Part shown: in pieces, positions 18,241-54,793 of the stretch
Numbering within the stretch: the stretch's first letter is position 1
Layout: every line of letters starts with the position of its first letter
From: a virus
Taxonomy: Duplodnaviria > Caudoviricetes
Reading direction: 5' to 3' (one strand)
Virus record (IMG/VR): IMGVR_UViG_3300005512_000001
Span: 277,435-341,434 of that record
Length of the DNA stretch: 64,000 nucleotides
Position numbers and translations under genes: made by a program
The notes under the pieces: model-generated
The model's database searches: none
What the model saw: only the letters and a program-made list of their open reading frames with translations
What the model was told of the DNA's origin: nothing

Positions 18241-20118
18241 ATGGCTGGTTATATGGAATTAAATATGATTACTAATAAAAGCAGAATAGAGTGGGATACC
18301 AAAGCCGAGCGTGATAAGTATGTTGCGTTGTTGTCTAAAAAGTTTAATGCCCCTACCATAGCTAATATATTGCGTATAGGGAAGAGAACAGTTTATAGAA
18401 TCCAAGAAGCATTGGATATACAAACATCTCATAGGCCAGCATATTATAGTTTGGATTATAAATCAGAATTACAAATCATAGAATTATATAATAATAAAAT
18501 AGCAACATGCCAAATTGCAGACCAATTTAATATTACACCAGATACTGTACTTAATATAGTTAGGCGTCACGGCAGCATAACTAGAAATTCACGTGAGAGT
18601 TTAAGGCTGGCATTACAATCTGATAAACATAACGATTTCGAATATATTGATAGTGAACAAAAGAGTTATATTGTGGGGCTTATTTGTGCCGATGGTAACA
18701 TAACCGGCAATGTTGTGACTATAGGATTAAAGGATTCTGATTCTAAACTACTTTATGACATACAAAGATTTTTAAATATAGGGTCTGTTAATGTTGTAAA
18801 TAATTCTGGGTTTAAATTAGCTAGATTTAGAATGTGCAAATCGAAAATCGTCGAAGATTTGAAGAATATTGGCATTATCGACTTTAAATCAGATCGCCCT
18901 AACCTAATTAATTCGTTGGATGATAATCTATTTAGAGCTTTTCTACTTGGGTTTTTTGATGGTGATGGTATTCTGTGCAGGAGCCAATCACAATGCGGCT
19001 TTGTTGGCACTAAAAATGTGATGGAATCTATCAATAATAAGATTAATAGCGTACTAGGGATATCATTTAATCTTTTTGAACATGGGTCTATCTATAAATT
19101 AATAACTGGCAATAAACAATATATGTTGAAATTTTTAAAGTGGCTATACCAGGCCGACATCTTCTGTCTAAAGCGAAAAGAGAAATTAGCAAAAGCTTGG
19201 ATTAATAGGTTGTCATATGACTTAAAATGGTTTAATGGCAACAGGTTTTCTGCTGGGAATTTTTCCGTCAGGCCGCCAAGTTTGAGGATTAAGCTGATAA
19301 AAGAAGTTGTTGAGAAGGTAAGTAGCAGATGGATACCACCATCATATACGGCAAATGAGTTGAGAAGCGACCTCAATAAATGTATTGGTGAAAATGTTGA
19401 TGTGCTTAAAAAAGCTAGGCGATATGGCCGTAAATTGATGATTAATTACAACCCACATTTCTGGGATGTTAAGGTGAGGAAGACACCAACTATCCCAGAA
19501 GTATGGACGAAGGCCAGTATCAGAAAATGTATGAATATATTGTCGAACAACAATGGATCGGTTACATTTGAGAGATTGATTCGCGAAATCCAATTCCAGT
19601 TAAAATGCAATGTAGCGTCATTATTTCATCCTGGTTTTACTAGATCGATTTTTAGAAGATTTAACATATCTAAACACATGACAGTATTCGACCCATGTGG
19701 TGGATGGGGCGGTAGGCTGATTGGCGCATATATTGATGGTGTCAATTATATAAGCACCGAGGTTGACAACAACACATATAATGGCCTGGTTGGGATTAAA
19801 AGATTCTTGGGTTCTAACTGCACCATACACAATAAATCATGCTTTGATATTGTGTGGCCAAAATATGATGTTGTATTAACTTCTCCGCCATTCTTCAATA
19901 GTGAAGATTATAGTCAATGGCAATGCCATAAAGATTGGGTTGAGAGATTTGTCAAGCCTTTTTTAGATAGGGTCAATGCGAGATGCATATTGCATCTAAA
20001 TAAAACAACTATGCAAGACTTTGCTAGTATTAGGCAACCGGACGATGTTGTCGAGATTAAAACAAGACCTAATCCAAGAGCTAGCTGGAGTCATGAATAT
20101 TTAGTTGTGTTCAACTGA
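18241..20118 (+). CDS. HTH + LAGLIDADG homing endonuclease fused to amino-DNA methyltransferase
   Basis: YIVGLICADGNI and FLLGFFDGDG; FDPCGGWGGRL (SAM motif I); TSPPFF (motif IV). Confidence 0.85.
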   Translation: MAGYMELNMITNKSRIEWDTKAERDKYVALLSKKFNAPTIANILRIGKRTVYRIQEALDIQTSHRPAYYSLDYKSELQIIELYNNKIATCQIADQFNITPDTVLNIVRRHGSITRNSRESLRLALQSDKHNDFEYIDSEQKSYIVGLICADGNITGNVVTIGLKDSDSKLLYDIQRFLNIGSVNVVNNSGFKLARFRMCKSKIVEDLKNIGIIDFKSDRPNLINSLDDNLFRAFLLGFFDGDGILCRSQSQCGFVGTKNVMESINNKINSVLGISFNLFEHGSIYKLITGNKQYMLKFLKWLYQADIFCLKRKEKLAKAWINRLSYDLKWFNGNRFSAGNFSVRPPSLRIKLIKEVVEKVSSRWIPPSYTANELRSDLNKCIGENVDVLKKARRYGRKLMINYNPHFWDVKVRKTPTIPEVWTKASIRKCMNILSNNNGSVTFERLIREIQFQLKCNVASLFHPGFTRSIFRRFNISKHMTVFDPCGGWGGRLIGAYIDGVNYISTEVDNNTYNGLVGIKRFLGSNCTIHNKSCFDIVWPKYDVVLTSPPFFNSEDYSQWQCHKDWVERFVKPFLDRVNARCILHLNKTTMQDFASIRQPDDVVEIKTRPNPRASWSHEYLVVFN

Positions 20119-33754: not shown

Positions 33755-35065
33755 GTGATGAGGACGAATGTAAAGAACAAGTACGCCGAGAAGACGCACG
33801 AGGGTGCACCTGCTGCAAGGTTGAACGCCGAACAGGAATTGCGAAGGTCTGTTATGTCGTGCCTTTTGTGGGAGAGAACCTTCTACGAGAATGGCGTGGG
33901 CATCGCAGAGCGGATCGCTGATTTAGTGCCGCACGTAGCACCAGAAAAGGTCGCTGCGATGGCAATCGAGGCACGTAGCGATATGAACTTGCGACACGCC
34001 CCGTTGTGGTTGGTCCGTTCGATGGCGGCTACCAAGACGCACAGGAGTTTGGTCGCTGATACGCTGGAAGCAGTAATTCAGCGTCCAGACGAACTGACTG
34101 AGTTCTTGTCTCTGTACTGGAATGGCAAGAAGACACCGCTTGCGGCTCAGGTCAAGAAGGGATTAGCAAGAGCATTCCGTAAGTTCGACGCTTATCGGTT
34201 GGCGAAGTACAATAGGGACAATGCCATCAAGCTTCGCGATGTCCTGTTCCTGACTCACGCCAAGCCAAAGGATGCCGAGCAGGCTGCAGTTTGGAAGAAG
34301 CTGGTCGATGGCACCTTGGAAGCCCCAGATACTTGGGAAGTTGCACTTTCGAGTGGTGCGGATAAGCAAGGTTCTTGGACCAGATTGCTTGAGGAAGGGA
34401 AGCTTGGTGCCTTTGCGTTGCTGAGGAACTTACGCAATATGCAGAAAGCAGATGTCGATGAGGACTTAATCAAAGACGCATTGGCCAAGGCTGATGTTTC
34501 CAGGATTTTGCCATTCCGATTCATCGCAGCTGCTCGTTATGCACCAGATTTTGAACCTGCTCTTGAGAAGGCGTTATTCAGGAGCTTGGAATCTCAGAAG
34601 CTTGTTGGTAAGACCATCGTATTGGTCGATGTTTCTGGTTCTATGAACTGGGAGCTTAGTTCGAAGTCCGATATGTTACGGATGGACGCGGCCTGCGGTC
34701 TTGCGATGGTATTGAGGGAATTGTGCGACGATATTAAAGTGTTCAGTTTCTCAACCCGCACTGCCAAGGTACCGGCCCGCAGAGGTTTTGCGCTACGTGA
34801 TGCAATCGTAAGGTCGCAGCGGCATAGCGGAACTTATCTTGGTGGGGCAGTTGACACCGCCAATAAAGAGAAGTACGACCGATTGGTGGTAATCACGGAT
34901 GAGCAGTCGCACGATGTTGTGCCATCGCCAAAGAGCCGTGGATACATGATTAATGTTTCGTCGGACAAAAATGGAGTTGGATACGGTGATTGGACTCGCA
35001 TTACCGGATGGAGCGAAGCGGTTGTGCGATATGTAATGGAACTTGAAAACGCCAAGTTCGTGTAG
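33755..35065 (+). CDS. rsr: Ro60/Rsr RNA-binding protein (TROVE + vWA domains)
   Basis: THEGAPA, LLWERTFYE, QRPDELTE, FDAYRLAKYNR, LRDVLFLTH, TWEVALS, ALLRNLRN, LPFRF; MIDAS DVSGSM; ITDEQ; ITGWSE. Confidence 0.95.
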   Translation: MMRTNVKNKYAEKTHEGAPAARLNAEQELRRSVMSCLLWERTFYENGVGIAERIADLVPHVAPEKVAAMAIEARSDMNLRHAPLWLVRSMAATKTHRSLVADTLEAVIQRPDELTEFLSLYWNGKKTPLAAQVKKGLARAFRKFDAYRLAKYNRDNAIKLRDVLFLTHAKPKDAEQAAVWKKLVDGTLEAPDTWEVALSSGADKQGSWTRLLEEGKLGAFALLRNLRNMQKADVDEDLIKDALAKADVSRILPFRFIAAARYAPDFEPALEKALFRSLESQKLVGKTIVLVDVSGSMNWELSSKSDMLRMDAACGLAMVLRELCDDIKVFSFSTRTAKVPARRGFALRDAIVRSQRHSGTYLGGAVDTANKEKYDRLVVITDEQSHDVVPSPKSRGYMINVSSDKNGVGYGDWTRITGWSEAVVRYVMELENAKFV

Positions 35066-35349: not shown

Positions 35350-35543
35350 ATGAACAAAGACGAGTTTCACAAAAGACAGCAGGGTTATCGCTTCTGGTTA
35401 GTATTGGGCGGTATGGCGGCTTCAATTTTGGGCTTGGAAGATATGGAGTTCGGCTTGTGCTAGGTTGGATTTCGATTTTCCTGGCCACTGTTGATTTGGA
35501 CTACGTATTGAGTTTGTCTACGAAGCAAAACGCAGAACAATGA
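35350..35543 (+). pseudogene. Frameshifted small membrane protein
   Basis: RBS + MNKDEF..ILGL continues as GRYGVRLVLGW.. in a shifted frame near 35435. Confidence 0.4.
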
Positions 35544-35547
35544 TATT

Positions 35548-35684
35548 CCAACGATGGTGTAGGTGACAGTTACTTCGATTTAGGATCGAGTGGTTGTGGG
35601 TTCGAATCCCACCCGCCCTTAATCGGGGCGGTAGCTCAATTGGCAGAGCGCTAAAACTTTCTGTTGCCGCCTGTTCCTCGTTGG
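35548..35684 (+). ncRNA. Y RNA-like unit 1: permuted tRNA with TAG anticodon loop
   Basis: CCAACGA/TCGTTGG and GGTGACAG/CTGTTGCC stems; anticodon arm, T arm, loop-closed acceptor, D arm. Confidence 0.85.
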
Positions 35685-35697
35685 TACTTTTGAGATT

Positions 35698-35764
35698 AAC
35701 CGATGGTGAAGAATACGGCTACTTCTATTTAAGAACCAAACCCGTGTTCGCTTGTTCCTCGGTT
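35698..35764 (+). ncRNA. Y RNA-like unit 2: minimal, Ro-binding stem only
   Basis: AACCGA/TCGGTT and GAATACGG/CCGTGTTC stems with conserved GGTGAAG / GCTTGTTCC loop. Confidence 0.8.
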
Positions 35765-35776
35765 TTTCATAAAGTT

Positions 35777-35863
35777 GGTTGATGGTGTAGGAATCGGTTA
35801 CTTCTACCAAAACCGGCCTCAAAAGCTGGTACTTGAAAAACCGATTTCGCATGTTCCTCAACC
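35777..35863 (+). ncRNA. Y RNA-like unit 3: lone anticodon-like hairpin (CAA)
   Basis: GGTTGA/TCAACC and GGAATCGGTT/AACCGATTTC stems; ACCGGC-CTCAAAA-GCTGGT. Confidence 0.8.
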
Positions 35864-35870
35864 TACAATC

Positions 35871-36011
35871 ATAGCTGATGGTGTAGGATACGGTTACTTC
35901 GACTTGTAATCGAGAGGTTGCGGGTTCGAATCCCGTCCATTTGTCGAGAGACATTTGGTAGCTCAACTGGTAGAGCGCTAAAATTTCCGTTTCCGCTTGT
36001 TCCTCGGCTAT
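35871..36011 (+). ncRNA. Y RNA-like unit 4: permuted tRNA with TGT anticodon loop
   Basis: ATAGCTGA/TCGGCTAT stem; TTCGA-CTTGTAA-TCGAG; T arm; GAGA-capped acceptor; D arm. Confidence 0.85.
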
Positions 36012-36018
36012 TCATTAT

Positions 36019-36162
36019 TTAGTTGATGGTGTAGAGAACAGTTACTTCTATAAAACGGTAGGTTACAGGTTTCGAGCCCTGTCCGCCTCAATGAGGCGGT
36101 AGCTCAACTGGAAGAGCAATCGTGGCATAAGCCAAGTCTGTTTTCGCCTGTTCCTCAACTAA
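36019..36162 (+). ncRNA. Y RNA-like unit 5: T/acceptor/D tRNA-like module
   Basis: TTAGTTGA/TCAACTAA and GAGAACAG/CTGTTTTC stems; CCGCCTC-AAT-GAGGCGG acceptor; D arm. Confidence 0.85.
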
Positions 36163-36169
36163 TTATTTT

Positions 36170-36291
36170 GCTGCGTTAGCTCAATAGGTAGAGTGCTGGG
36201 ACCTTTATCCCAGGTATGAGGAGTCGCAACTTCGTTGGTCCTAGGCACCGGGTGTTGTTGTTGGCTTAAGGTTCGAATCCCTCACGCAGCA
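36170..36291 (+). ncRNA. tRNA-like RNA with 8-nt anticodon loop and ~50-nt variable region
   Basis: GCTGCGT/ACGCAGC acceptor, D arm, CTGGG-ACCTTTAT-CCCAG, GGTTCGAATCC. Confidence 0.7.
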
Positions 36292-39050: not shown

Positions 39051-39135
39051 GCCGGGATCGCATAGTGGCCGATTGCACTGGTTTTGTAAACCAGAGGGCG
39101 TGTGCCCCGCGTGGGTTCGAATCCCACTCTCGGCT
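39051..39135 (+). tRNA. tRNA-Thr(TGT) with long variable arm
   Basis: Loop TT-TGT-AA; GGGC-GTGT-GCCC variable stem. Confidence 0.8.
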
Positions 39136-39184: not shown

Positions 39185-39415
39185 ATGGTACTCCCAAAAT
39201 TTACAGGTACGAACATCATAACTTGGAATTCCACTACTGCTAGTAGCACGGGTGCAACCTCGGCAGGATATGAAATTCATATAGATGCTGCTTCGGGTAC
39301 AGATACAGGGGTATTGATTGTGTATTATAGTAATGAAGTGGAACCTACAGAATCTACGGAACCTACGGAACCTATAGAATCAATCAAACGCGAGCGACGA
39401 ATATTGGAGATATGA
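39185..39415 (+). CDS. Hypothetical protein
   Basis: RBS GAGG; EPT repeats. Confidence 0.5.
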   Translation: MVLPKFTGTNIITWNSTTASSTGATSAGYEIHIDAASGTDTGVLIVYYSNEVEPTESTEPTEPIESIKRERRILEI

Positions 39416-39918
39416 TGCAGAAAACGTTTGTGATGATTAAGCCTGATGCAGTGCAACGTGGTTTGGTTGGTGAGATAATCACAAGGTTTGAAAATAAAGG
39501 TCTAAAGCTGGTCGGACTTAAATTAATGCTGGTTGACACCGATGCTGCAAAACGATTGTATAAATACCATAAAGGCCGATCATATTACGACGACCTTATA
39601 GCCTTCACAACATCGTCGCCAGTGGTGGTAATTGTCTTAGAGGGAAACGATGTGGTACGAGTCGTTAGGCGGATGCTCGGAGATACTAGTGGCGTCGATG
39701 CCTCTGCTGGCACTATTCGTGGCGACTATAGTGTTAGCCGCACTAATAGAAATTTAGTACACGCATCAGATAGTGTTAAATGTGCTAAATTCGAATTTGA
39801 AATATTCTTTGACGATTTATTAGAATACACAAAATGTAATGAGCAGTGGTTGTATTCTGATAAAGATAAAGGTGTTTTAGAGTTAGGCCAGAAGCCTGTC
39901 GAGCCGGTGCAGGAATAA
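39412..39918 (+). CDS. ndk: Nucleoside diphosphate kinase
   Basis: TFVMIKPDAVQRGLVGEII, GTIRGD, NLVHASDS. Confidence 0.95.
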   Translation: MMQKTFVMIKPDAVQRGLVGEIITRFENKGLKLVGLKLMLVDTDAAKRLYKYHKGRSYYDDLIAFTTSSPVVVIVLEGNDVVRVVRRMLGDTSGVDASAGTIRGDYSVSRTNRNLVHASDSVKCAKFEFEIFFDDLLEYTKCNEQWLYSDKDKGVLELGQKPVEPVQE

Positions 39919-43178: not shown

Positions 43179-44192
43179 ATGGTCAAGGAAAATGGATTCA
43201 CGCTAGTTGAAATGCTGGTTATAATAGTAATTATTGCACTGTTGTTGATGATTATTTTACCAGCAATGCATACAGCTAAAGAGCATACATACAATGCGAC
43301 ATGTCAATCGAACCTTCATCATTTATTTGAAATATTACACGCACCTTCAGAACCCGGTAAAATCCCAAATATGCCAAATTATAGAGGATGGATTCCAAAG
43401 GTCACCAATGTCGGCCCGGCCGGATTATTAATTTGCCCTAAAGATGATGTTGAGGACAGTGCTGCTGCTGTTGGGATAGATGGGGTTACAATTATAAGCC
43501 CTCCGCCATCGGTCGTTTTCAACAAATATGAAAGCAATACCATTATCCATGGTTTTATTGAACAAGATGGCTATGAATTACCATCTGCTGTTGCAGTAAA
43601 TATCTCCCAACCTGGACTATACACTTCTGGTTATGATTCTACTAGAACTACTATTCCAGCTGGCACGGTTGTTGATTCATATTTTGTGTTTTTTGACCCA
43701 GTTGGTAGCCAATATTCAACTTCAAGCGGCACTGTGACTTTGGCAGCGGATGTTTTAGGGCTGATTGTAAAATCTGGAGATTTGGACGCTAGCGATTCAA
43801 TCTTGGGCAGCCCTAACGTATTGTATCCAACCGGGCAAGGAGCAAGAGGTTTTGAGAGCGGGGCGGAGAGAGTGGAACTCGAAAATGACATGCGAACAAT
43901 AAAAATTCATCATTTTCAATCCACATTTCCTGGCGAAAATATGCGCATATTAACGATGCGTGGCGGCGTAGCTAGTTATGGGATGAATAAGCTTATGATG
44001 CCATCCGACACTCGACCCGGCCAGATATTACTAGTGGAATATGAATCAACAGTTGTCGACCCGCGTAGCGTAAACCACAAAAAGTCGATGCAGGCACGCC
44101 ACTTTGGTCGTGTTAATACTTTATATATCAGTGGCGATATCGAGAGCCTAGAGATAGATAGCATACAAGAGAAGGACTGGTTAGCAAGATAA
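43179..44192 (+). CDS. Prepilin-type N-methylation domain protein with H-X9-DG-like C-terminus (DUF1559-like)
   Basis: GFTLVEMLVIIVIIALLLMIILPA..CQSNL..SYGMN..RHFGRVNTLYISGDIE. Confidence 0.85.
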   Translation: MVKENGFTLVEMLVIIVIIALLLMIILPAMHTAKEHTYNATCQSNLHHLFEILHAPSEPGKIPNMPNYRGWIPKVTNVGPAGLLICPKDDVEDSAAAVGIDGVTIISPPPSVVFNKYESNTIIHGFIEQDGYELPSAVAVNISQPGLYTSGYDSTRTTIPAGTVVDSYFVFFDPVGSQYSTSSGTVTLAADVLGLIVKSGDLDASDSILGSPNVLYPTGQGARGFESGAERVELENDMRTIKIHHFQSTFPGENMRILTMRGGVASYGMNKLMMPSDTRPGQILLVEYESTVVDPRSVNHKKSMQARHFGRVNTLYISGDIESLEIDSIQEKDWLAR

Positions 44193-46934: not shown

Positions 46935-47543
46935 ATGACTGCATTAAATAGTTCAGTTTTAGTTTTAAATAAGCACTACGCGGCTGATGGTGAAACCGAT
47001 GTAAAGCGTGCGCTATGCCTAGTTTTTAGAGGCGTGGCTGAAATTATAGATGTTGATGGCGGCAAATTCAATAATTATGATTTCGAGTCATGGCAGGAAT
47101 TAAGCGAATTCAAAGCTGAATTTGAAAAAGATAACCATAATTGGATTAGATGTGTTGCTAGTGTATTAGCAATCCCAACTATAATTAGGCTTGTAAGTTA
47201 CGGCAAATTCAGACGTAGAGAAGCTAAGCTCAATAGACGCAATTTGTTTGCCAGAGATAAGAATACATGCCAGTTCTGCGGCAAGAAAATGAAGACATCT
47301 GAGCTTAGCTTAGACCATGTTGTTCCAAAAAGCAGAGGTGGTAAGCTGGAATGGACGAACGTGGTATGTGCATGTATCAAGTGCAATGTTAAGAAGGCTA
47401 ATAGGACTCCTAGTGAAGCGCATATGAAGTTGATTCGCAAGCCGTTCCAGCCGAAGCATCAATTAAATGTCCCAAAAATAAAGTATCGCTCTTGGGCACA
47501 CTTTGTTGATGCAGCTTATTGGGGTGCTGAATTAAAGGAGTGA
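46935..47543 (+). CDS. HNH endonuclease (McrA-like)
   Basis: VLVLN, RDKNTCQFCG, LDHVVPKSRGG, NVVCACIKCNVKK. Confidence 0.92.
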   Translation: MTALNSSVLVLNKHYAADGETDVKRALCLVFRGVAEIIDVDGGKFNNYDFESWQELSEFKAEFEKDNHNWIRCVASVLAIPTIIRLVSYGKFRRREAKLNRRNLFARDKNTCQFCGKKMKTSELSLDHVVPKSRGGKLEWTNVVCACIKCNVKKANRTPSEAHMKLIRKPFQPKHQLNVPKIKYRSWAHFVDAAYWGAELKE

Positions 47544-48246: not shown

Positions 48247-48756
48247 ATGAACAACAAAGACCGCACGGAATTTGGATTCCATCGTACAGTGTCGGCGAAT
48301 GCCGAAGATGTGCTGTGCTGTAAGTATATGCCAAGTTATCTAGTTCCATCCGACATTAGTAGATTGTGCGATAGGTTTGGGTGTAATCCATTGCAACTAG
48401 CCAAATCACATTTATTGGCTTCTCCGGGTGCTGAGATAAGCAAGGATGGCGTTAGACAGAGACTCCGCACGTTAGTACCAGACAGGAATAGTGTCGGTCA
48501 CTGTGAATTCCTTCATGATGGCAAATGTGCTATCCATGGTGATTCTCCGTATGGTTGTGCATTTTTCGATTCTGAAATGTCAGACCAAGAAGCATCCCTC
48601 CGCACTAGTGCAGGGCTGCAAGCTATATGGGATGCCTGGCAAGACGAAGATAGTGATTACGCCTTGCTATGGGATTTATTATTTCTGATGGGTAGACGCG
48701 CCCCGGACCCATATGAATGCAAAAGGAAGATTAGAGAGGAATTAAGGAAATTATGA
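48247..48756 (+). CDS. YkgJ/CxxCxxCC-like cysteine-cluster protein
   Basis: LCC..CEFLHDGKCAIH..PYGCAFF. Confidence 0.65.
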   Translation: MNNKDRTEFGFHRTVSANAEDVLCCKYMPSYLVPSDISRLCDRFGCNPLQLAKSHLLASPGAEISKDGVRQRLRTLVPDRNSVGHCEFLHDGKCAIHGDSPYGCAFFDSEMSDQEASLRTSAGLQAIWDAWQDEDSDYALLWDLLFLMGRRAPDPYECKRKIREELRKL

Positions 48757-49688
48757 AAGTTACGATTATAATGGGTGCTCCGGCGTCTGGGAAAAGTACG
48801 CTTGCTGAAAAGGTATTGACCGATGGGTGTGTCCATTTAAATAGAGACACAGAGGGTGGTAGAACATTCGACCTACTGCCTAAGATGGCTGCTGCTTTGC
48901 GCGATGGCAGAGATGTTGTGACCGATAATTTATTTACAACTGCAAATACCCGAAAGCCATTTATAGAATTAGCTAAGAAGCATGGAGCAACAGTTATTGG
49001 TCAGCGAATGGACACTAGCATTGAGGACGCCCAAATCAACGCTTTACACCGCATGATTAAAAAACATGGTAGGCTATTTTTCACTGCTCAGGATACGAAA
49101 GGAATCGATGACCCTGGTGTATTTCCGGTTGCAGTGTTATTCAGATACCGGAAAGACCTTGAGAAGCCAGTCATAACGGAAGGTTTTGATGAACTTACGA
49201 CAGTAAAATTTGTTAGGGAACCGTCGCTATGCTCCAATAAAGCTGTATTGTTGGATTATGACGGCACCCTACGTGAATCCACCGGCGATTACCCATATCC
49301 TGTAAAGCCGGGAGATGTCAAGGTTATTCCTGGTGTGGCTGAGAAGCTGATGGATTACATACGGCAGGGCTATATGCTGCTTGGGATATCAAACCAATCT
49401 GGAATAGGCAAGGGGGTGCTTACTGACGATGAGGTGCAAGCTTGTTTTGAGGAGACACACAAGCAAATTGGGATTCAGATTTACACACAATATTGCCCGC
49501 ATAAAGTGCCACCTATCTCATGTTATTGTAGGAAGCCGCAGAGTGGCATGGGTGTTAATCTTATTGAACAATTCAAGTTGAACCCGGCGCAGTGTATAAT
49601 GGTTGGGGACCAAACCACTGACAAGACGTTTGCCAAGAGGTTAGGTTTCCAATTTGAGTTTGCCCACAAATTCTTTAAAAGACATTAG
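48753..49688 (+). CDS. Polynucleotide kinase/phosphatase-like bifunctional enzyme
   Basis: GAPASGKST, NRD; C-terminal HAD DYDGT, SNQSG, CRKP, MVGD. Confidence 0.85.
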   Translation: MKVTIIMGAPASGKSTLAEKVLTDGCVHLNRDTEGGRTFDLLPKMAAALRDGRDVVTDNLFTTANTRKPFIELAKKHGATVIGQRMDTSIEDAQINALHRMIKKHGRLFFTAQDTKGIDDPGVFPVAVLFRYRKDLEKPVITEGFDELTTVKFVREPSLCSNKAVLLDYDGTLRESTGDYPYPVKPGDVKVIPGVAEKLMDYIRQGYMLLGISNQSGIGKGVLTDDEVQACFEETHKQIGIQIYTQYCPHKVPPISCYCRKPQSGMGVNLIEQFKLNPAQCIMVGDQTTDKTFAKRLGFQFEFAHKFFKRH

Positions 49689-51206: not shown

Positions 51207-51281
51207 TCTGGGTGGGGGGATTCGAACCCGCGACCTCGGCGTCCCGAACGCCGCACTCTGACCAAACTGAGCTACACCCAG
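51207..51281 (-). tRNA. tRNA-Pro(CGG)
   Basis: Cloverleaf. Confidence 0.88.
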
Positions 51282-51832
51282 CTAAAAAACATGTGCCTCT
51301 TTGTTCTAAACATCACACTCACACCTAATGCTTCTACGGCTTCCACAGACTTAAATAGTTGTATGTGAGTAAAACAACGCATATTAAGCGGGACGCTGCC
51401 AACTATTGTTTTGGATTTCTTCTTGCATTTTTCCAATAGCAGTTTTGGGTCAGATAGATGCTCTAATACCTCAAATAGCATAATCAAATCCGCTTGACCC
51501 TCATATTTATCTATAAAGTCATATGCGTTGTCTACAACAAGCGTAACTGGTAAATCACCAATAGTTTGTTTGCCGCGTTCGACTCTAGCTTCTGAATAAT
51601 CAGCACCTATAACGTTGCATTCATATTGCGATGCGATTAATTTTGATACTCTGCCGTCTCCACATCCGATATCCAAGACATGGCTATTATTGTCTAATAC
51701 CACACCTGCTTTATTTAGGATGCGTATTAGCCGTTTTTTGCTACGGCGAGACATAGATGATTTATAACCAGGATGTGAATTATAAAACTTTAACCGTTTA
51801 CGCTCTTGCTTGAAAATATTGTCTAAATTCAT
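51272..51832 (-). CDS. Class I SAM-dependent methyltransferase
   Basis: VLDIGCGDG, GADYS, FEVLEHL; stop codon lies inside tRNA-Pro 5' end. Confidence 0.85.
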   Translation of the reverse strand: MNLDNIFKQERKRLKFYNSHPGYKSSMSRRSKKRLIRILNKAGVVLDNNSHVLDIGCGDGRVSKLIASQYECNVIGADYSEARVERGKQTIGDLPVTLVVDNAYDFIDKYEGQADLIMLFEVLEHLSDPKLLLEKCKKKSKTIVGSVPLNMRCFTHIQLFKSVEAVEALGVSVMFRTKRHMFFSWV

Positions 51833-54100: not shown

Positions 54101-54793
54101 TTATATCTCAATGATTGTTGGTTTGCCCGTCATCTTATAACTTTCATTTAATACACTCACGTTGTGGCATATAGTTGTGTTCCCGTCAGTGTATGCTATT
54201 TTGCTAAGTGCATCTGGCGATGGCGGAGTCTGTCCTGTATGAATATGCCCGTATAAATGCCGCTTTGGTCGGATTTTCATAATCTTCGCCAGTAATTTTT
54301 TGCACCCCGCACGATATACTAACTTATTACGCTCGTGGCGTTGCCAAACAGAATCGCCATGTCCATACCCCGGCCCGTGTGTTATGAGTATATCTGTGCC
54401 ATCTGGGATGGCACTCCAGTGTCTTTCGGCATAGGTTCCATCGTCGTCTTCTGGGAAGTTGAATGCCCAGTTGCAAAAGAATGGAGACCAAGGGCTTCCC
54501 CAGAATTTGACGCCCTCTATCTCAATTCCAGATTCTTCTAGGTAGTGGCAAGGTAATTTTGGCAGCATGTTTTTGGCATCGTAGAATATCCAATCGTGGT
54601 TCCCAGCAATGACGATTTTATGCTTCGCCGGGATGTTTCGCAGCCATAAGTTGAAATATCCGGCCAGCCAGTTGGCTTGGAACGCTCTCGTATGGTTGGT
54701 TGTAGGGCAGATATCACCTGCATGTATGAAGACATCGCATGCCGGAATATCCGGCAACGCCCCATGGGTGTCTGATATAGCTACGATTTTCAT
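54101..54793 (-). CDS. Metallophosphoesterase
   Basis: SDTH, HAGD, AGNHD, THGP, GHIH. Confidence 0.9.
   Translation of the reverse strand: MKIVAISDTHGALPDIPACDVFIHAGDICPTTNHTRAFQANWLAGYFNLWLRNIPAKHKIVIAGNHDWIFYDAKNMLPKLPCHYLEESGIEIEGVKFWGSPWSPFFCNWAFNFPEDDDGTYAERHWSAIPDGTDILITHGPGYGHGDSVWQRHERNKLVYRAGCKKLLAKIMKIRPKRHLYGHIHTGQTPPSPDALSKIAYTDGNTTICHNVSVLNESYKMTGKPTIIEI

What the first reader, a model, noticed from the sequence alone, without database searches (positions are those of the whole stretch)
35574..35978. Y RNA units keep real anticodon loops (TAG, CAA, TGT): complete circularly permuted tRNAs
Seen: units 1 and 4 read anticodon arm, variable loop, T arm (GGGTTCGAATCCC), loop-closed acceptor stem, D arm, i.e. 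a whole tRNA opened between D and anticodon arms. Loops are canonical 7-mers: TT-TAG-GA (35579-85) and CT-TGT-AA (35903-09). Unit 3 carries only ACCGGC-CT-CAA-AA-GCTGGT, and unit 2 has an unpaired TT-TAA-GA. Established: described YrlA RNAs mimic D, T and acceptor arms, with the Ro stem in place of the anticodon arm. Inference: these uncharged anticodon displays could be decoys or baits for anticodon nucleases, modification enzymes or synthetases. Three of four are Leu anticodons, and Leu(TAG) is absent from this window's tRNA set.
Basis: partly seen in the sequence, partly recalled or inferred. Interest (0 to 1): 0.85.

Follow-up and report, generated by a model that had tools for sequence, protein, structure and literature searches.

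The report
Phage Y RNAs carrying true anticodon arms
Two of five small partner RNAs encoded beside a giant phage's Ro60 gene are whole tRNAs in rearranged order with a sealed amino-acid end, and the hairpin that papers call their "variable arm" looks like a real anticodon arm in over 100 phage and bacterial relatives.

Summary
The window is the end of a complete 341-kb jumbo phage. A Ro60/TROVE gene (33755-35065) is followed by five Y RNA units, not four.

- **Units 1 and 4:** each reads Ro handle, 5-bp/7-nt hairpin, 5-nt variable loop, T arm, capped 7-bp acceptor stem, D arm, N26, Ro handle. This is a tRNA permuted at position 26/27.
- **Relatives:** I collected them with a pattern that says nothing about the hairpin. 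The hairpin is present in 65 of 111 phage units and 39 of 88 bacterial units.
- **Anticodon-loop signature (phage set):** U33 in 94%, purine 37 in 97%. U36 goes with A37 and G36 with G37. A34 is avoided. The two inner stem pairs covary.
- **Re-ordering test:** put back in normal order, 57 of 65 units are called as 74-78-nt tRNAs with the expected anticodon.

The hairpin itself is not new. Chen et al. 2014 described it as a less-conserved "V" (variable) stem-loop, and mycobacteriophage ET08, one of their sequences, has it. What I did not find in print is its reading as an anticodon arm.

Function is untested. A Ro60-tethered display for proteins that read anticodon loops (decoy or bait) is my best guess. 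The Leu emphasis fails: the genome has tRNA-Leu(UAG) with the same loop. Units 2 and 3 add little. This scan has noted phage Ro60/Y RNA arrays before on other DNA.

The parts
33755..35065 (+). Ro60-like protein gene (TROVE plus Ro60 vWA domains), the presumed protein partner of the RNAs
   Evidence: Pfam TROVE E=5.5e-18; vWA_Ro60 E=2.4e-05. 52-55% identical to Ro-like proteins of Xanthomonas, Brevundimonas and Caulobacter phages.
35550..35682 (+). Y RNA unit 1, a permuted whole tRNA on a Ro handle. Anticodon arm 35574-35590 (loop 35579-35585 UUUAGGA, anticodon UAG), variable loop 35591-35595, T arm 35596-35612, acceptor hairpin 35613-35631 (7 bp, loop UAAUC), U8-A9 35632-35633, D arm 35634-35649, G26 35650
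   Evidence: Sequence. The minimum-energy fold recovers the hairpin, T arm, acceptor stem and D arm. Rfam YrlA 42.9 bits, partial match, below the gathering score of 69. Re-ordered, it is called tRNA-Leu(tag), 76 nt.
35699..35763 (+). Y RNA unit 2, short (YrlB-like). Its apical hairpin UUCU-AUUUA-AGAA (35723-35735) is not anticodon-like
   Evidence: Fold. It shares the 5' and 3' handle motifs, and its outer stem covaries with the other units.
35777..35863 (+). Y RNA unit 3, short. Apical 6-bp stem with 7-nt loop CUCAAAA (35812-35830): an anticodon-like loop (CAA) without a tRNA body
   Evidence: Fold, z = -3.1. Short units as a class show no enrichment for such loops. A related example is in L009.
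35873..36009 (+). Y RNA unit 4, a permuted whole tRNA on a Ro handle. Anticodon arm 35898-35914 (loop 35903-35909 CUUGUAA, anticodon UGU), variable loop 35915-35919, T arm 35920-35936, acceptor hairpin 35937-35958 (two U.U mismatches, extended by 2 bp under a GAGA loop), D arm 35961-35976, G26 35977
   Evidence: Sequence. Rfam YrlA 33.1 bits. ARAGORN and Rfam miscall 35872-35945 as a weak tRNA-Thr(tgt), 30.8 bits. Re-ordered, it is called tRNA-Thr(tgt), 76 nt. The same hairpin sequence occurs in Xanthomonas phage 10KY502B.
36020..36163 (+). Y RNA unit 5, tRNA-like (T arm, 7-bp acceptor hairpin, D arm). Its hairpin at the same site has a 6-nt loop (AAAACG) and no U33. An extra 3' hairpin reads UGGC-AUAA-GCCA
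   Evidence: Rfam YrlA 31.6 bits, full-length alignment; fold.

Best explanation
**What it is (shown).** Units 1 and 4 are YrlA-class Y RNAs, presumably partners of the phage Ro60 encoded just upstream. Their non-handle part is a whole tRNA in circularly permuted order. The chain enters at position 27 (anticodon arm), runs through the variable loop and T arm, crosses a loop-capped 7-bp acceptor stem, passes the D arm, and leaves after position 26. The 5' and 3' ends form the conserved Ro-binding handle. The stem-loop that the literature labels the 'V' (variable) arm is, by every sequence criterion I could apply, an anticodon arm.

**What it is not (shown).** It is not a decoding tRNA. The acceptor end is closed, there is no discriminator preference, and the body is generic whatever the anticodon.

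**How it most likely works (inferred).** The Ro60 ring binds the handle. The tRNA module presents an uncharged, full L-shaped tRNA with a specific anticodon loop to proteins that read anticodon loops. These probably include tRNA modification enzymes: the G36-G37 and U36-A37 pairings match the known determinants of TrmD and the t6A machinery. They may also include anticodon nucleases of host defence systems, for which the RNA would act as a competitor or bait. Different units of one array display different anticodons.

My confidence is about 0.9 for the anatomy and about 0.35-0.4 for the decoy/bait mechanism.
For: **Anatomy**
- Sequence and folds.
- The pattern GTTACTTC-N(8-38)-GGTTCRANTCC says nothing about a hairpin. 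It gave 111 phage units with a D arm, of which 65 have a 5-bp stem (at least 4 pairs), a 7-nt loop and a 3-6-nt variable loop. Perfect 5-bp stems occur about 37 times with a 7-nt loop, against 5 or fewer for any other loop length.
- In 43 units chosen by spacing alone, the helix is 91% paired. Its two inner pairs covary (GC 29, CG 10, UA 1; AU 21, CG 17, UA 2, GC 1). No shuffle out of 500 reached this.
- The Levitt pair is G15:C48 in 36 units and A15:U48 in 16, with no mixed cases (p = 1e-13). N26 is G or A, and G26.A44 is the commonest 26/44 combination. So the 4-5 nt after the hairpin are positions 44-48, and the hairpin occupies 27-43.
- Re-ordered, 57 of 65 units are called by ARAGORN as 74-78-nt tRNAs with the expected anticodon.

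**Loop signature**
- U33 in 61 of 65, purine 37 in 63 of 65, A38 in 57 of 65. Real phage tRNAs from the same loci show 94% and 98% for the first two.
- U36 goes with A37 in 39 of 40 and G36 with G37 in 14 of 15 (p = 5e-12).
- A34 occurs in 3 of 104. The displayed triplet belongs to the 32 commonly used anticodons in 88 of 104, against 50% expected (p = 1.6e-13).

**Mechanism hints**
- L050 and L092 are 97% identical outside the loop but read UUU-A37 and UUG-G37.
- None of 6 arrays with two such units repeats an anticodon. Units 1 and 4 have identical stems but differ at 4 of 7 loop positions.
- Acceptor stems are capped by short loops such as UUCG, GCAA and GAAA.
- YrlA is modified by TruB and DusA in vivo (PMC4201824). 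A competitive-inhibitor role against an anticodon nuclease was proposed for YrlA (PMC7790460). The Ro60-like gp130 of phage Bas63 counters a defence system (PMC11482910).
- This phage also encodes a polynucleotide kinase/phosphatase inside its tRNA array and a CCA-adding enzyme.
Against: - No transcript, binding, modification or cleavage data exist for these RNAs.
- The feature is not phage-specific: 39 of 88 bacterial units have it. A purely anti-defence role therefore cannot be general.
- U33 and purine 37 also stabilise the U-turn loop, so part of the signature could be structural.
- Sequences are related. I did not correct the statistics for phylogeny, so p-values are inflated.
- 41% of phage units and 56% of bacterial units lack the anticodon-like form, including unit 5 here. 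The Salmonella YrlA crystal structure has no such hairpin. So the feature is dispensable for Y RNA function as such.
- A real tRNA with the same anticodon occurs in the same locus at chance level only (5 of 34).
- I found no RtcB or Rnl-type RNA ligase in the genome.
- Whether the hairpin or the Ro handle stacks under the D stem cannot be told from sequence.
Confidence: 0.55

Rival explanations
1. The hairpin is a retained or structural feature with no anticodon-directed function. YrlA arose from tRNA(s); Wang et al. 2018 proposed a dimeric pre-tRNA origin. On this view the anticodon arm survives because a complete tRNA fold, further stabilised by tRNA modification enzymes, protects the Y RNA from nucleases or keeps the L-shape rigid for some other effector such as PNPase. 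The identity of the anticodon would be irrelevant.
For: - The hairpin is missing or degenerate in many family members, including unit 5, the Streptomyces-type units and Salmonella YrlA (10.1101/312249).
- U36-type loops dominate (62% against 35% in real tRNAs) and GUU is by far the commonest. This could be inheritance from one ancestor.
- Chen et al. 2014 proposed nuclease protection as one role of the tRNA fold.
- The body does not match the amino-acid identity of the anticodon (12 observed against 9.9 expected, p = 0.27).
Against: - 32 different triplets are displayed and nearly all are real anticodons. A34 is avoided, which a purely structural constraint does not explain.
- Position 37 tracks position 36 across many stem backgrounds and within one near-identical pair.
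- Paralogues in one array never share an anticodon (0 of 6), even when their stems are identical.
Confidence: 0.3
2. The hairpin is the variable arm, as Chen et al. 2014 labelled it. The Ro handle, continued by the conserved YUAY internal loop, takes the place of the anticodon stem. The resemblance of the hairpin to an anticodon arm would be superficial.
For: - This is the published model.
- In Salmonella YrlA the stem formed by the 5' and 3' ends does occupy the anticodon-stem position (10.1101/312249).
- Sequence alone cannot fix the stacking at a five-way junction.
Against: - A type-II variable arm is not followed by a full 5-nt 44-48 segment whose last base covaries with position 15. Here it is (52 of 52).
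- N26 and N44 flank the base of the hairpin as in tRNA, with G26.A44 commonest.
- Stem length (5 bp), loop length (7 nt), U33, purine 37 and the 36/37 rule are anticodon-arm features, not variable-arm features.
- tRNA finders accept the re-ordered RNAs as tRNAs with a short variable loop.
Confidence: 0.1
3. These are genuine permuted tRNA genes, processed into working tRNAs. The acceptor loop would be opened by RNase P and a 3' nuclease, CCA added, and the handle removed or tolerated. The phage would gain extra tRNA-Leu(UAG) and tRNA-Thr(UGU).
For: - M. smegmatis YrlA is cut by RNase P and receives CCA (PMC4201824).
- The acceptor stems are 7 bp.
- The phage has a CCA-adding enzyme and a polynucleotide kinase.
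- Wang et al. 2018 raised processing as a possibility.
Against: - The acceptor stems are capped by short, stable loops.
- The base at the discriminator position is mostly U or C (36 of 54).
- Leu and Ser anticodons sit on bodies without the long variable arm.
- The body is generic.
- The genome already has tRNA-Leu(UAG) and tRNA-Thr(UGU).
- Unit 4's acceptor stem has two U.U mismatches.
- I found no RNA ligase, and no splicing endonuclease is known in bacteria.
- The conserved handle matches the Ro-binding motif, and the units sit beside Ro60.
Confidence: 0.05

Closest known systems
YrlA (Y RNA-like A; Rfam RF02553) of Salmonella, M. smegmatis and mycobacteriophages, with Ro60/Rsr (Chen et al. 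2014, PMC4201824; Wang et al. 2018, 10.1101/312249)
   Same: - Encoded next to Ro60 on the same strand.
- The 5' and 3' ends form the Ro handle, with a variant of the GNCGAAG motif and the conserved YUAY.
- T arm, loop-closed acceptor stem and D arm, with 15:48 covariation.
- Arrays that mix tRNA-like and short (YrlB-like) units.
- Many published YrlAs have a stem-loop at the same place ('V'). ET08's is CUC-AUUGAAA-GAG.
   Different: - The window units score below the Rfam gathering threshold: 31-43 bits against 69.
- The Rfam consensus and the solved Salmonella structure have no local hairpin. There the anticodon-stem position is taken by the stem formed by the 5' and 3' ends, and the papers state that YrlA lacks an anticodon loop.
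- Here, and in 104 relatives, the hairpin has full anticodon-arm geometry and sequence rules. The papers I could read do not report this.
D. radiodurans Yrn1
   Same: A Y RNA that Chen et al. 2014 modelled with a potential 'anticodon arm' having a 5-bp stem.
   Different: Its loop has 6 nt, it has no variable arm and no clear D arm, and the order of its arms differs. The authors consider it independently evolved.
Circularly permuted tRNA genes of Cyanidioschyzon merolae and some archaea (Soma et al. 2007; Chan et al. 2011; cited in 10.1101/312249)
   Same: The 3' part of the tRNA precedes the 5' part, the acceptor ends are joined by an intervening loop, and the outer ends pair with each other.
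   Different: - Those genes are processed by the splicing endonuclease and a ligase, through a circular intermediate, into working tRNAs.
- To my knowledge their break points lie in the anticodon, D or T loops. Here the break is at 26/27.
- Here the outer helix is a conserved Ro60 handle, and nothing suggests maturation.
Phage tRNAs with altered anticodon loops that evade tRNA-targeting defences (van den Berg et al. 2023, cited in PMC11482910)
   Same: Phage-encoded RNAs with anticodon loops, lying in tRNA clusters, and plausibly shaped by host anticodon nucleases.
   Different: Those are functional tRNAs that replace cleaved host tRNAs. The Y RNA units cannot be charged and would act, if at all, as competitors or baits.

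Membership tests
YrlA-class Y RNA (RF02553) | Encoded within about 4 kb of a Ro60/TROVE gene, on the same strand | tested here: met
   The Ro60-like ORF is at 33755-35065 (+). The units lie at 35550-36163 (+).
YrlA-class Y RNA (RF02553) | Reaches Rfam's gathering score (69 bits) | tested here: not met
   42.9 bits (unit 1, partial match), 33.1 (unit 4) and 31.6 (unit 5). ET08's published YrlA also scores only 37.4, so the model is narrow.
YrlA-class Y RNA (RF02553) | 5' Ro-binding motif GNCGAAN0-1G and a conserved YUAY before the tRNA-like part | tested here: inconclusive
   The window has GGUGUAG, which departs at two positions, followed by GUUAC. Relatives at the same place read GGCGAAG, GGUGAAG, AGCGAAA or GGUGUAG. 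This looks like one continuous family, but binding was not tested.
YrlA-class Y RNA (RF02553) | tRNA-like T arm, loop-closed acceptor stem and D arm, with 15:48 covariation | tested here: met
   G15:C48 in 36 units and A15:U48 in 16, none mixed.
YrlA-class Y RNA (RF02553) | Bound by Ro60/Rsr | not testable with these tools
   Needs co-immunoprecipitation or gel-shift assays with the phage Ro60.
Functional tRNA (RF00005) | Linear cloverleaf with a free 5' end and a 3' acceptor end | tested here: not met
   The acceptor stem is closed by a 5- or 8-nt loop. A cloverleaf is obtained only after re-ordering. The native-order calls (30.8 and 25.1 bits) misuse the Ro handle as acceptor and D arm.
Functional tRNA (RF00005) | Body consistent with the anticodon's amino acid (for example a long variable arm for Leu and Ser, and a discriminator base) | tested here: not met
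   Units with Leu or Ser anticodons have 4-5-nt variable loops. Body and anticodon agree no more than by chance (p = 0.27). The base at the position-73 equivalent is U 22, C 14, A 10, G 8.
Functional tRNA (RF00005) | Anticodon arm of 5 bp with a 7-nt loop, U33 and purine 37 | tested here: met
Permuted tRNA genes that mature into tRNAs | 3' half before 5' half, with the acceptor ends joined by an intervening sequence | tested here: met
Permuted tRNA genes that mature into tRNAs | Bulge-helix-bulge motif at the outer junction, plus a splicing endonuclease and ligase to circularise | not tested
   The outer helix is the conserved Ro handle. I made no formal search for a bulge-helix-bulge motif. 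No RtcB or Rnl profile matched in the genome.

The most novel reading that the evidence does not exclude
The 'V' stem-loop of many YrlA-type Y RNAs is a functional anticodon display that can be retargeted. Ro60-bound, uncharged whole-tRNA mimics would show chosen anticodon loops, probably carrying t6A37, m1G37 or Q34. They would soak up or bait anticodon nucleases or other anticodon readers. Phages would carry panels of them and switch anticodons as part of an arms race with tRNA-targeting defences.
Probability: 0.3. Interest if true: 0.85.

Novelty: new member of a known kind. Interest (0 to 1): 0.6.

Why it matters
What the tRNA-like half of bacterial and phage Y RNAs does has been open since 2014. 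No interactor is known, and the solved Salmonella example lacks an anticodon loop.

If the widespread 'V' hairpin is really an anticodon arm obeying the 36/37 rules, the list of candidate partners narrows to proteins that read anticodon loops. Direct tests follow:
- Look for t6A37, m1G37 or Q34 on the RNA.
- Test cleavage by, or competition with, nucleases specific for the displayed anticodon.
- Swap the anticodon in culturable phages such as Xanthomonas phage 10KY502B, Gordonia phage Boopy or mycobacteriophage ET08.

There is also a practical point. tRNA finders pick up these hairpins, so some Y RNAs are deposited as tRNA genes (tRNA-Thr in 10KY502B, tRNA-Leu in Boopy-type phages, tRNA-Asn in Microbacterium phage SM23). 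This inflates phage tRNA counts.

Tried and rejected
1. **Whole-tRNA identity mimicry.** I asked whether the D arm, variable loop and T arm of each unit resemble real tRNAs of the displayed anticodon's amino acid. They do not (12 observed against 9.9 expected, p = 0.27). The Glu-type D arm seen in L001 next to a CUC loop does not generalise.
2. **Complementing or duplicating the phage tRNA set.** A real tRNA with the same anticodon occurs in the same locus at chance level (5 of 34). The window's genome already has both cognate tRNAs.
3. **Anticodon-like loops in short (YrlB-like) units.** I found no enrichment: 12 of about 66 apical loops have 7 nt, and only 5 of those have both U33 and purine 37. 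Unit 3 and a unit in L009 are isolated cases.
4. **A sixth unit at 35486-35553**, holding UUUGU-CUACGAA-GCAAA. It does not fold better than shuffled sequence (z = +0.5) and aligns poorly to the handle. I treat it as chance or a decayed relic.
5. **Faster change in the loop than elsewhere among close pairs.** Only three pairs were at least 80% identical, and the pooled test is not significant (p = 0.30).
6. **RNA ligase or RtcB in the genome.** No profile hits. The T4 Rnl1 profile also found nothing in any control genome, so that one result is uninformative.
7. **Literature.** The reviews by Sim and Wolin (2018), Boccitto and Wolin (2019) and Sim et al. (2020), and Burroughs and Aravind (2016), are not held in the library. 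I cannot exclude that one of them already notes the anticodon-like nature of the V stem-loop.
8. **MAFFT alignment of all spacing classes together (A1).** It put gaps inside the loop, so I did not use it for pair counts. I used the gap-free class with 22-nt spacing (A2) instead.
Full report
**Setting.** The window is the last 64 kb of a complete 341,434-bp virus record with direct terminal repeats, 42% G+C. It holds 41 of the genome's 44 ARAGORN tRNA calls. One of these calls is false (see below). An ORF at 33755-35065 (+) is a Ro60-type protein: Pfam TROVE E = 5.5e-18 plus the Ro60 vWA domain. It is 52-55% identical to Ro-like proteins of Xanthomonas, Brevundimonas and Caulobacter phages.

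Downstream on the same strand lie five units, not four. Each begins with GAUGGUG(U/A)AG ... (G/C)UACUUC and ends with (C/U/A)UGUUCCUC. In each, the outermost bases pair and differ between units: AACGA/UCGUU, ACCGA/UCGGU, GGUUGA/UCAACC, AGCUGA/UCGGCU, UAGUUGA/UCAACUA. Rfam's YrlA model matches units 1, 4 and 5 at 42.9, 33.1 and 31.6 bits, below its gathering score of 69.

**The observation.**
- In unit 1, UUCGA (35574-35578) pairs with UCGAG (35586-35590) around UUUAGGA.
- In unit 4, the same stem (35898-35902 / 35910-35914) encloses CUUGUAA.
- Each hairpin is followed by five bases (UGGUU or AGGUU), a canonical T arm, and seven bases that pair with seven bases further on across a 5- or 8-nt loop. 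Then come UA, a 4-bp D arm and a G.
- The chain then returns to pair with the 5' end.

A hairpin of this description (5 pairs, 7-nt loop, U at loop position 2, purine at position 6) occurs at 0.22% of window positions. Here it sits at the same offset after GUUAC in two units.

ARAGORN and Rfam call 35872-35945 a weak tRNA-Thr(tgt) (30.8 bits). They do so by misusing the Ro handle as acceptor and D arm.

Unit 3 has a 6-bp/7-nt hairpin with loop CUCAAAA and no tRNA body. Unit 2's supposed TT-TAA-GA lies across a 4-bp/5-nt hairpin and is not a loop. Unit 5 has a hairpin at the same site with a 6-nt loop and no U33.

**Is it conserved?** Nucleotide searches found the same architecture in other phages.
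- Xanthomonas phages carry it, and 10KY502B has the identical UUCGA-CUUGUAA-UCGAG.
- Gordonia phages carry it next to an annotated Ro-like gene, with loop AUUGGGA.
- Caulobacter phage CcrColossus also matched.

I then scanned viral contigs with GTTACTTC-N(8-38)-GGTTCRANTCC. This fixes only the conserved motif before the hairpin and the T loop after it, so it is blind to what lies between.
- Of 179 distinct hits, 111 have a D arm downstream.
- Of those, 65 (59%) have a 5-bp stem (at least 4 pairs) starting at the conserved CUUC/UUC, a 7-nt loop and a 3-6-nt spacer before the T stem.
- Perfect 5-bp stems occur about 37 times with a 7-nt loop, and at most about 5 times with any other loop length from 3 to 12.
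- In the 43 units picked only because the spacing is 22 nt (alignment A2, no gaps), the proposed helix is paired in 91% of cells. Its two inner pairs show compensatory changes (GC 29, CG 10, UA 1; AU 21, CG 17, UA 2, GC 1). No shuffle out of 500 and no slid register comes close.

**Is it an anticodon arm or a variable arm?**
- In the 65 phage units, loop position 33 is U in 61, position 37 is a purine in 63 and position 38 is A in 57. In 587 real tRNAs called in the same loci, the first two figures are 94% and 98%.
- Position 37 follows position 36 as in tRNAs: U36 goes with A37 in 39 of 40 and G36 with G37 in 14 of 15 (Fisher p = 5e-12).
- With 39 bacterial units added, A34 occurs in 3 of 104 (25% expected if unconstrained). 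The displayed triplet belongs to the 32 anticodons common in real phage tRNAs in 88 of 104 (50% expected, p = 1.6e-13).
- The last base of the spacer after the hairpin covaries perfectly with the second D-loop base: G:C in 36, A:U in 16, none mixed. This is the 15:48 Levitt pair.
- The base after the D stem is G or A. G26 with A44 is the commonest 26/44 combination.

So positions 26 and 44-48 are all present and flank the hairpin exactly as they flank the anticodon arm in a tRNA. When the pieces are put in normal order in silico, ARAGORN of 65 as 74-78-nt tRNAs with the expected anticodon. These include unit 1 as tRNA-Leu(tag) and unit 4 as tRNA-Thr(tgt). Several of the eight failures show clear parsing errors of my script.

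I conclude that 'whole tRNA, permuted at 26/27, acceptor capped' is the right description.

**What is already known.** Chen et al. 2014 (PMC4201824) described YrlA as a Ro-binding stem plus D arm, T arm and a closed acceptor stem. [quoted passage not shown] They equated this with the variable arm, and said the conserved YUAY begins the V loop. That YUAY is the UUAC of GUUACUUC here.

Mycobacteriophage ET08, one of their aligned sequences, has GGUUACCUC-AUUGAAA-GAGAG-AGGUC before its T arm. This is the same hairpin with a 7-nt loop, U33 and A37.

Wang et al. 2018 (10.1101/312249) solved the Salmonella domain, which has no such hairpin. They state that YrlA 'lacks the anticodon loop' and resembles a circularly permuted tRNA with a closed acceptor stem.

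Its anticodon-arm character is not reported in any paper I could read. Four relevant reviews are not held, so priority is uncertain.

**Not phage-specific.** The same pattern in one genome per prokaryote species gave 88 units with a D arm. Of these, 39 have the anticodon-like form. They come from Actinomycetota, Acidobacteriota, Bacteroidota, Verrucomicrobiota and Bacillota. GUU (Asn) is the commonest display. Streptomyces-type units have a shorter hairpin without the signature.

**What it is not.** It is not a decoding tRNA.
- Acceptor stems are capped by short loops, often UUCG, GCAA or GAAA.
- The base at the discriminator position is mostly U or C.
- Leu and Ser anticodons sit on bodies with 4-5-nt variable loops.
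- The body does not resemble tRNAs of the displayed amino acid more than chance (p = 0.27).

The genome has its own tRNA-Leu(UAG), whose loop UUUAGGA is identical to unit 1's. It also has a tRNA-Thr(UGU) with loop UUUGUAA.

**How it probably works.**

*Shown.* These are Y RNA units next to Ro60 whose effector module is a complete, uncharged tRNA mimic with a specific, realistic anticodon loop.

*From the literature.*
- Y RNAs tether Ro60 to effectors such as PNPase.
- YrlA is modified by TruB and DusA (PMC4201824).
- A phage Ro60 with its Y-like RNAs binds host PNPase in vitro (PMC12135203).
- The Ro60-like gp130 of phage Bas63 counters a defence system (PMC11482910).
- YrlA was suggested to inhibit an anticodon nuclease competitively (PMC7790460).

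*Inferred.* The 36/37 coupling matches the substrate determinants of TrmD (G36-G37) and the t6A enzymes (U36-A37). The avoidance of A34 reflects decoding rules rather than loop stability. So the loops seem selected to be read as particular anticodon loops.

Hints of retargeting:
- L050 and L092 are 97% identical outside the loop but display UUU-A37 and UUG-G37.
- None of six arrays with two such units repeats an anticodon.
- Units 1 and 4 share identical stems but differ at 4 of 7 loop positions.

I therefore favour a Ro60-tethered display that engages anticodon-loop readers. These would be modification enzymes and, as decoy or bait, anticodon nucleases. I give this only about 0.35-0.4.

The main rival (0.3) is that the arm is kept for fold stability or by descent, and that the anticodon identity is irrelevant. 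In its favour, the feature occurs in bacteria and is often lost, and U36-type loops dominate (62% against 35% in real tRNAs, p = 7e-5).

**Caveats.**
- The D-arm filter is a crude regular expression.
- Sequences are related and the tests are not corrected for phylogeny.
- Stacking at the five-way junction cannot be read from sequence.
- Nothing here shows expression, Ro60 binding, modification or cleavage.

**Verdict.** The object is a new member of the known YrlA/Ro60 family. Earlier notes of this scan had already recorded phage Ro60/Y RNA arrays in other genomes and five units in this window. The part that may be new, and that makes the old question of the tRNA-like domain's function testable, is that the published 'V arm' behaves as a true anticodon arm.

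Noticed in passing
window 36170-36291 (+): A tRNA-like gene lies directly after unit 5. It has an 8-bp acceptor stem, a normal D arm and an anticodon stem whose loop is not 7 nt (6 or 8, depending on the fold). About 50 nt are inserted in the variable region, and the T arm is weak. Rfam tRNA scores 35.8 bits; ARAGORN does not call it.
   Followed up: partly
window 39051-39135 (+): ARAGORN calls an 85-nt tRNA-Thr(tgt) with a long variable arm, that is, a type-II-like body with a Thr anticodon. Its loop is UUUGUAA.
   Followed up: no
window 35872-35945 (+); L001 1504-1571; L002 1464-1552: tRNA finders and GenBank records annotate Y RNA units as tRNA genes, because the anticodon-like hairpin plus T arm scores as a tRNA. 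Examples are tRNA-Thr in Xanthomonas phage 10KY502B, tRNA-Leu in Gordonia phages Boopy, BlueNGold and Mareelih, and tRNA-Asn in Microbacterium phage SM23. In my loci, 17 ARAGORN calls overlapped Y units.
   Followed up: partly
window 48753-49688 (+); genome C1:92083-92451 (L234): A T4 Pnk-like polynucleotide kinase/3'-phosphatase (AAA_33 plus PNK3P/HAD) lies inside the tRNA array. A CCA-adding enzyme lies elsewhere in the genome. No RtcB or Rnl2 profile matched.
   Followed up: partly
L009 3880-3970: A short Y RNA upstream of a related Ro60 gene carries UCUGU-UUUGUAA-ACAGA. This is a perfect anticodon-like stem-loop (UGU) without a tRNA body, like window unit 3.
   Followed up: no
L355 28050-28400 (Mycobacterium phage ET08): Three Y RNA units lie upstream of Ro-like gp220: two short and one tRNA-like. 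None is annotated. The tRNA-like one scores only 37.4 bits against Rfam YrlA, although ET08 was in the 2014 alignment.
   Followed up: partly
window 35486-35553 (+): The spacer before unit 1 holds UUUGU-CUACGAA-GCAAA (an Arg ACG-type loop) and faint handle-like ends. This may be a decayed sixth unit. It folds no better than shuffled sequence.
   Followed up: yes
window 39412-39918, 46935-47543, 51272-51832 (-), 54101-54793 (-), 43179-44192, 18241-20118: Genes interspersed in or near the tRNA array: nucleoside diphosphate kinase, HNH endonuclease, a SAM methyltransferase, a metallophosphoesterase, a protein with a type-IV-pilin N-terminal methylation motif, and an HTH/LAGLIDADG protein.
   Followed up: no
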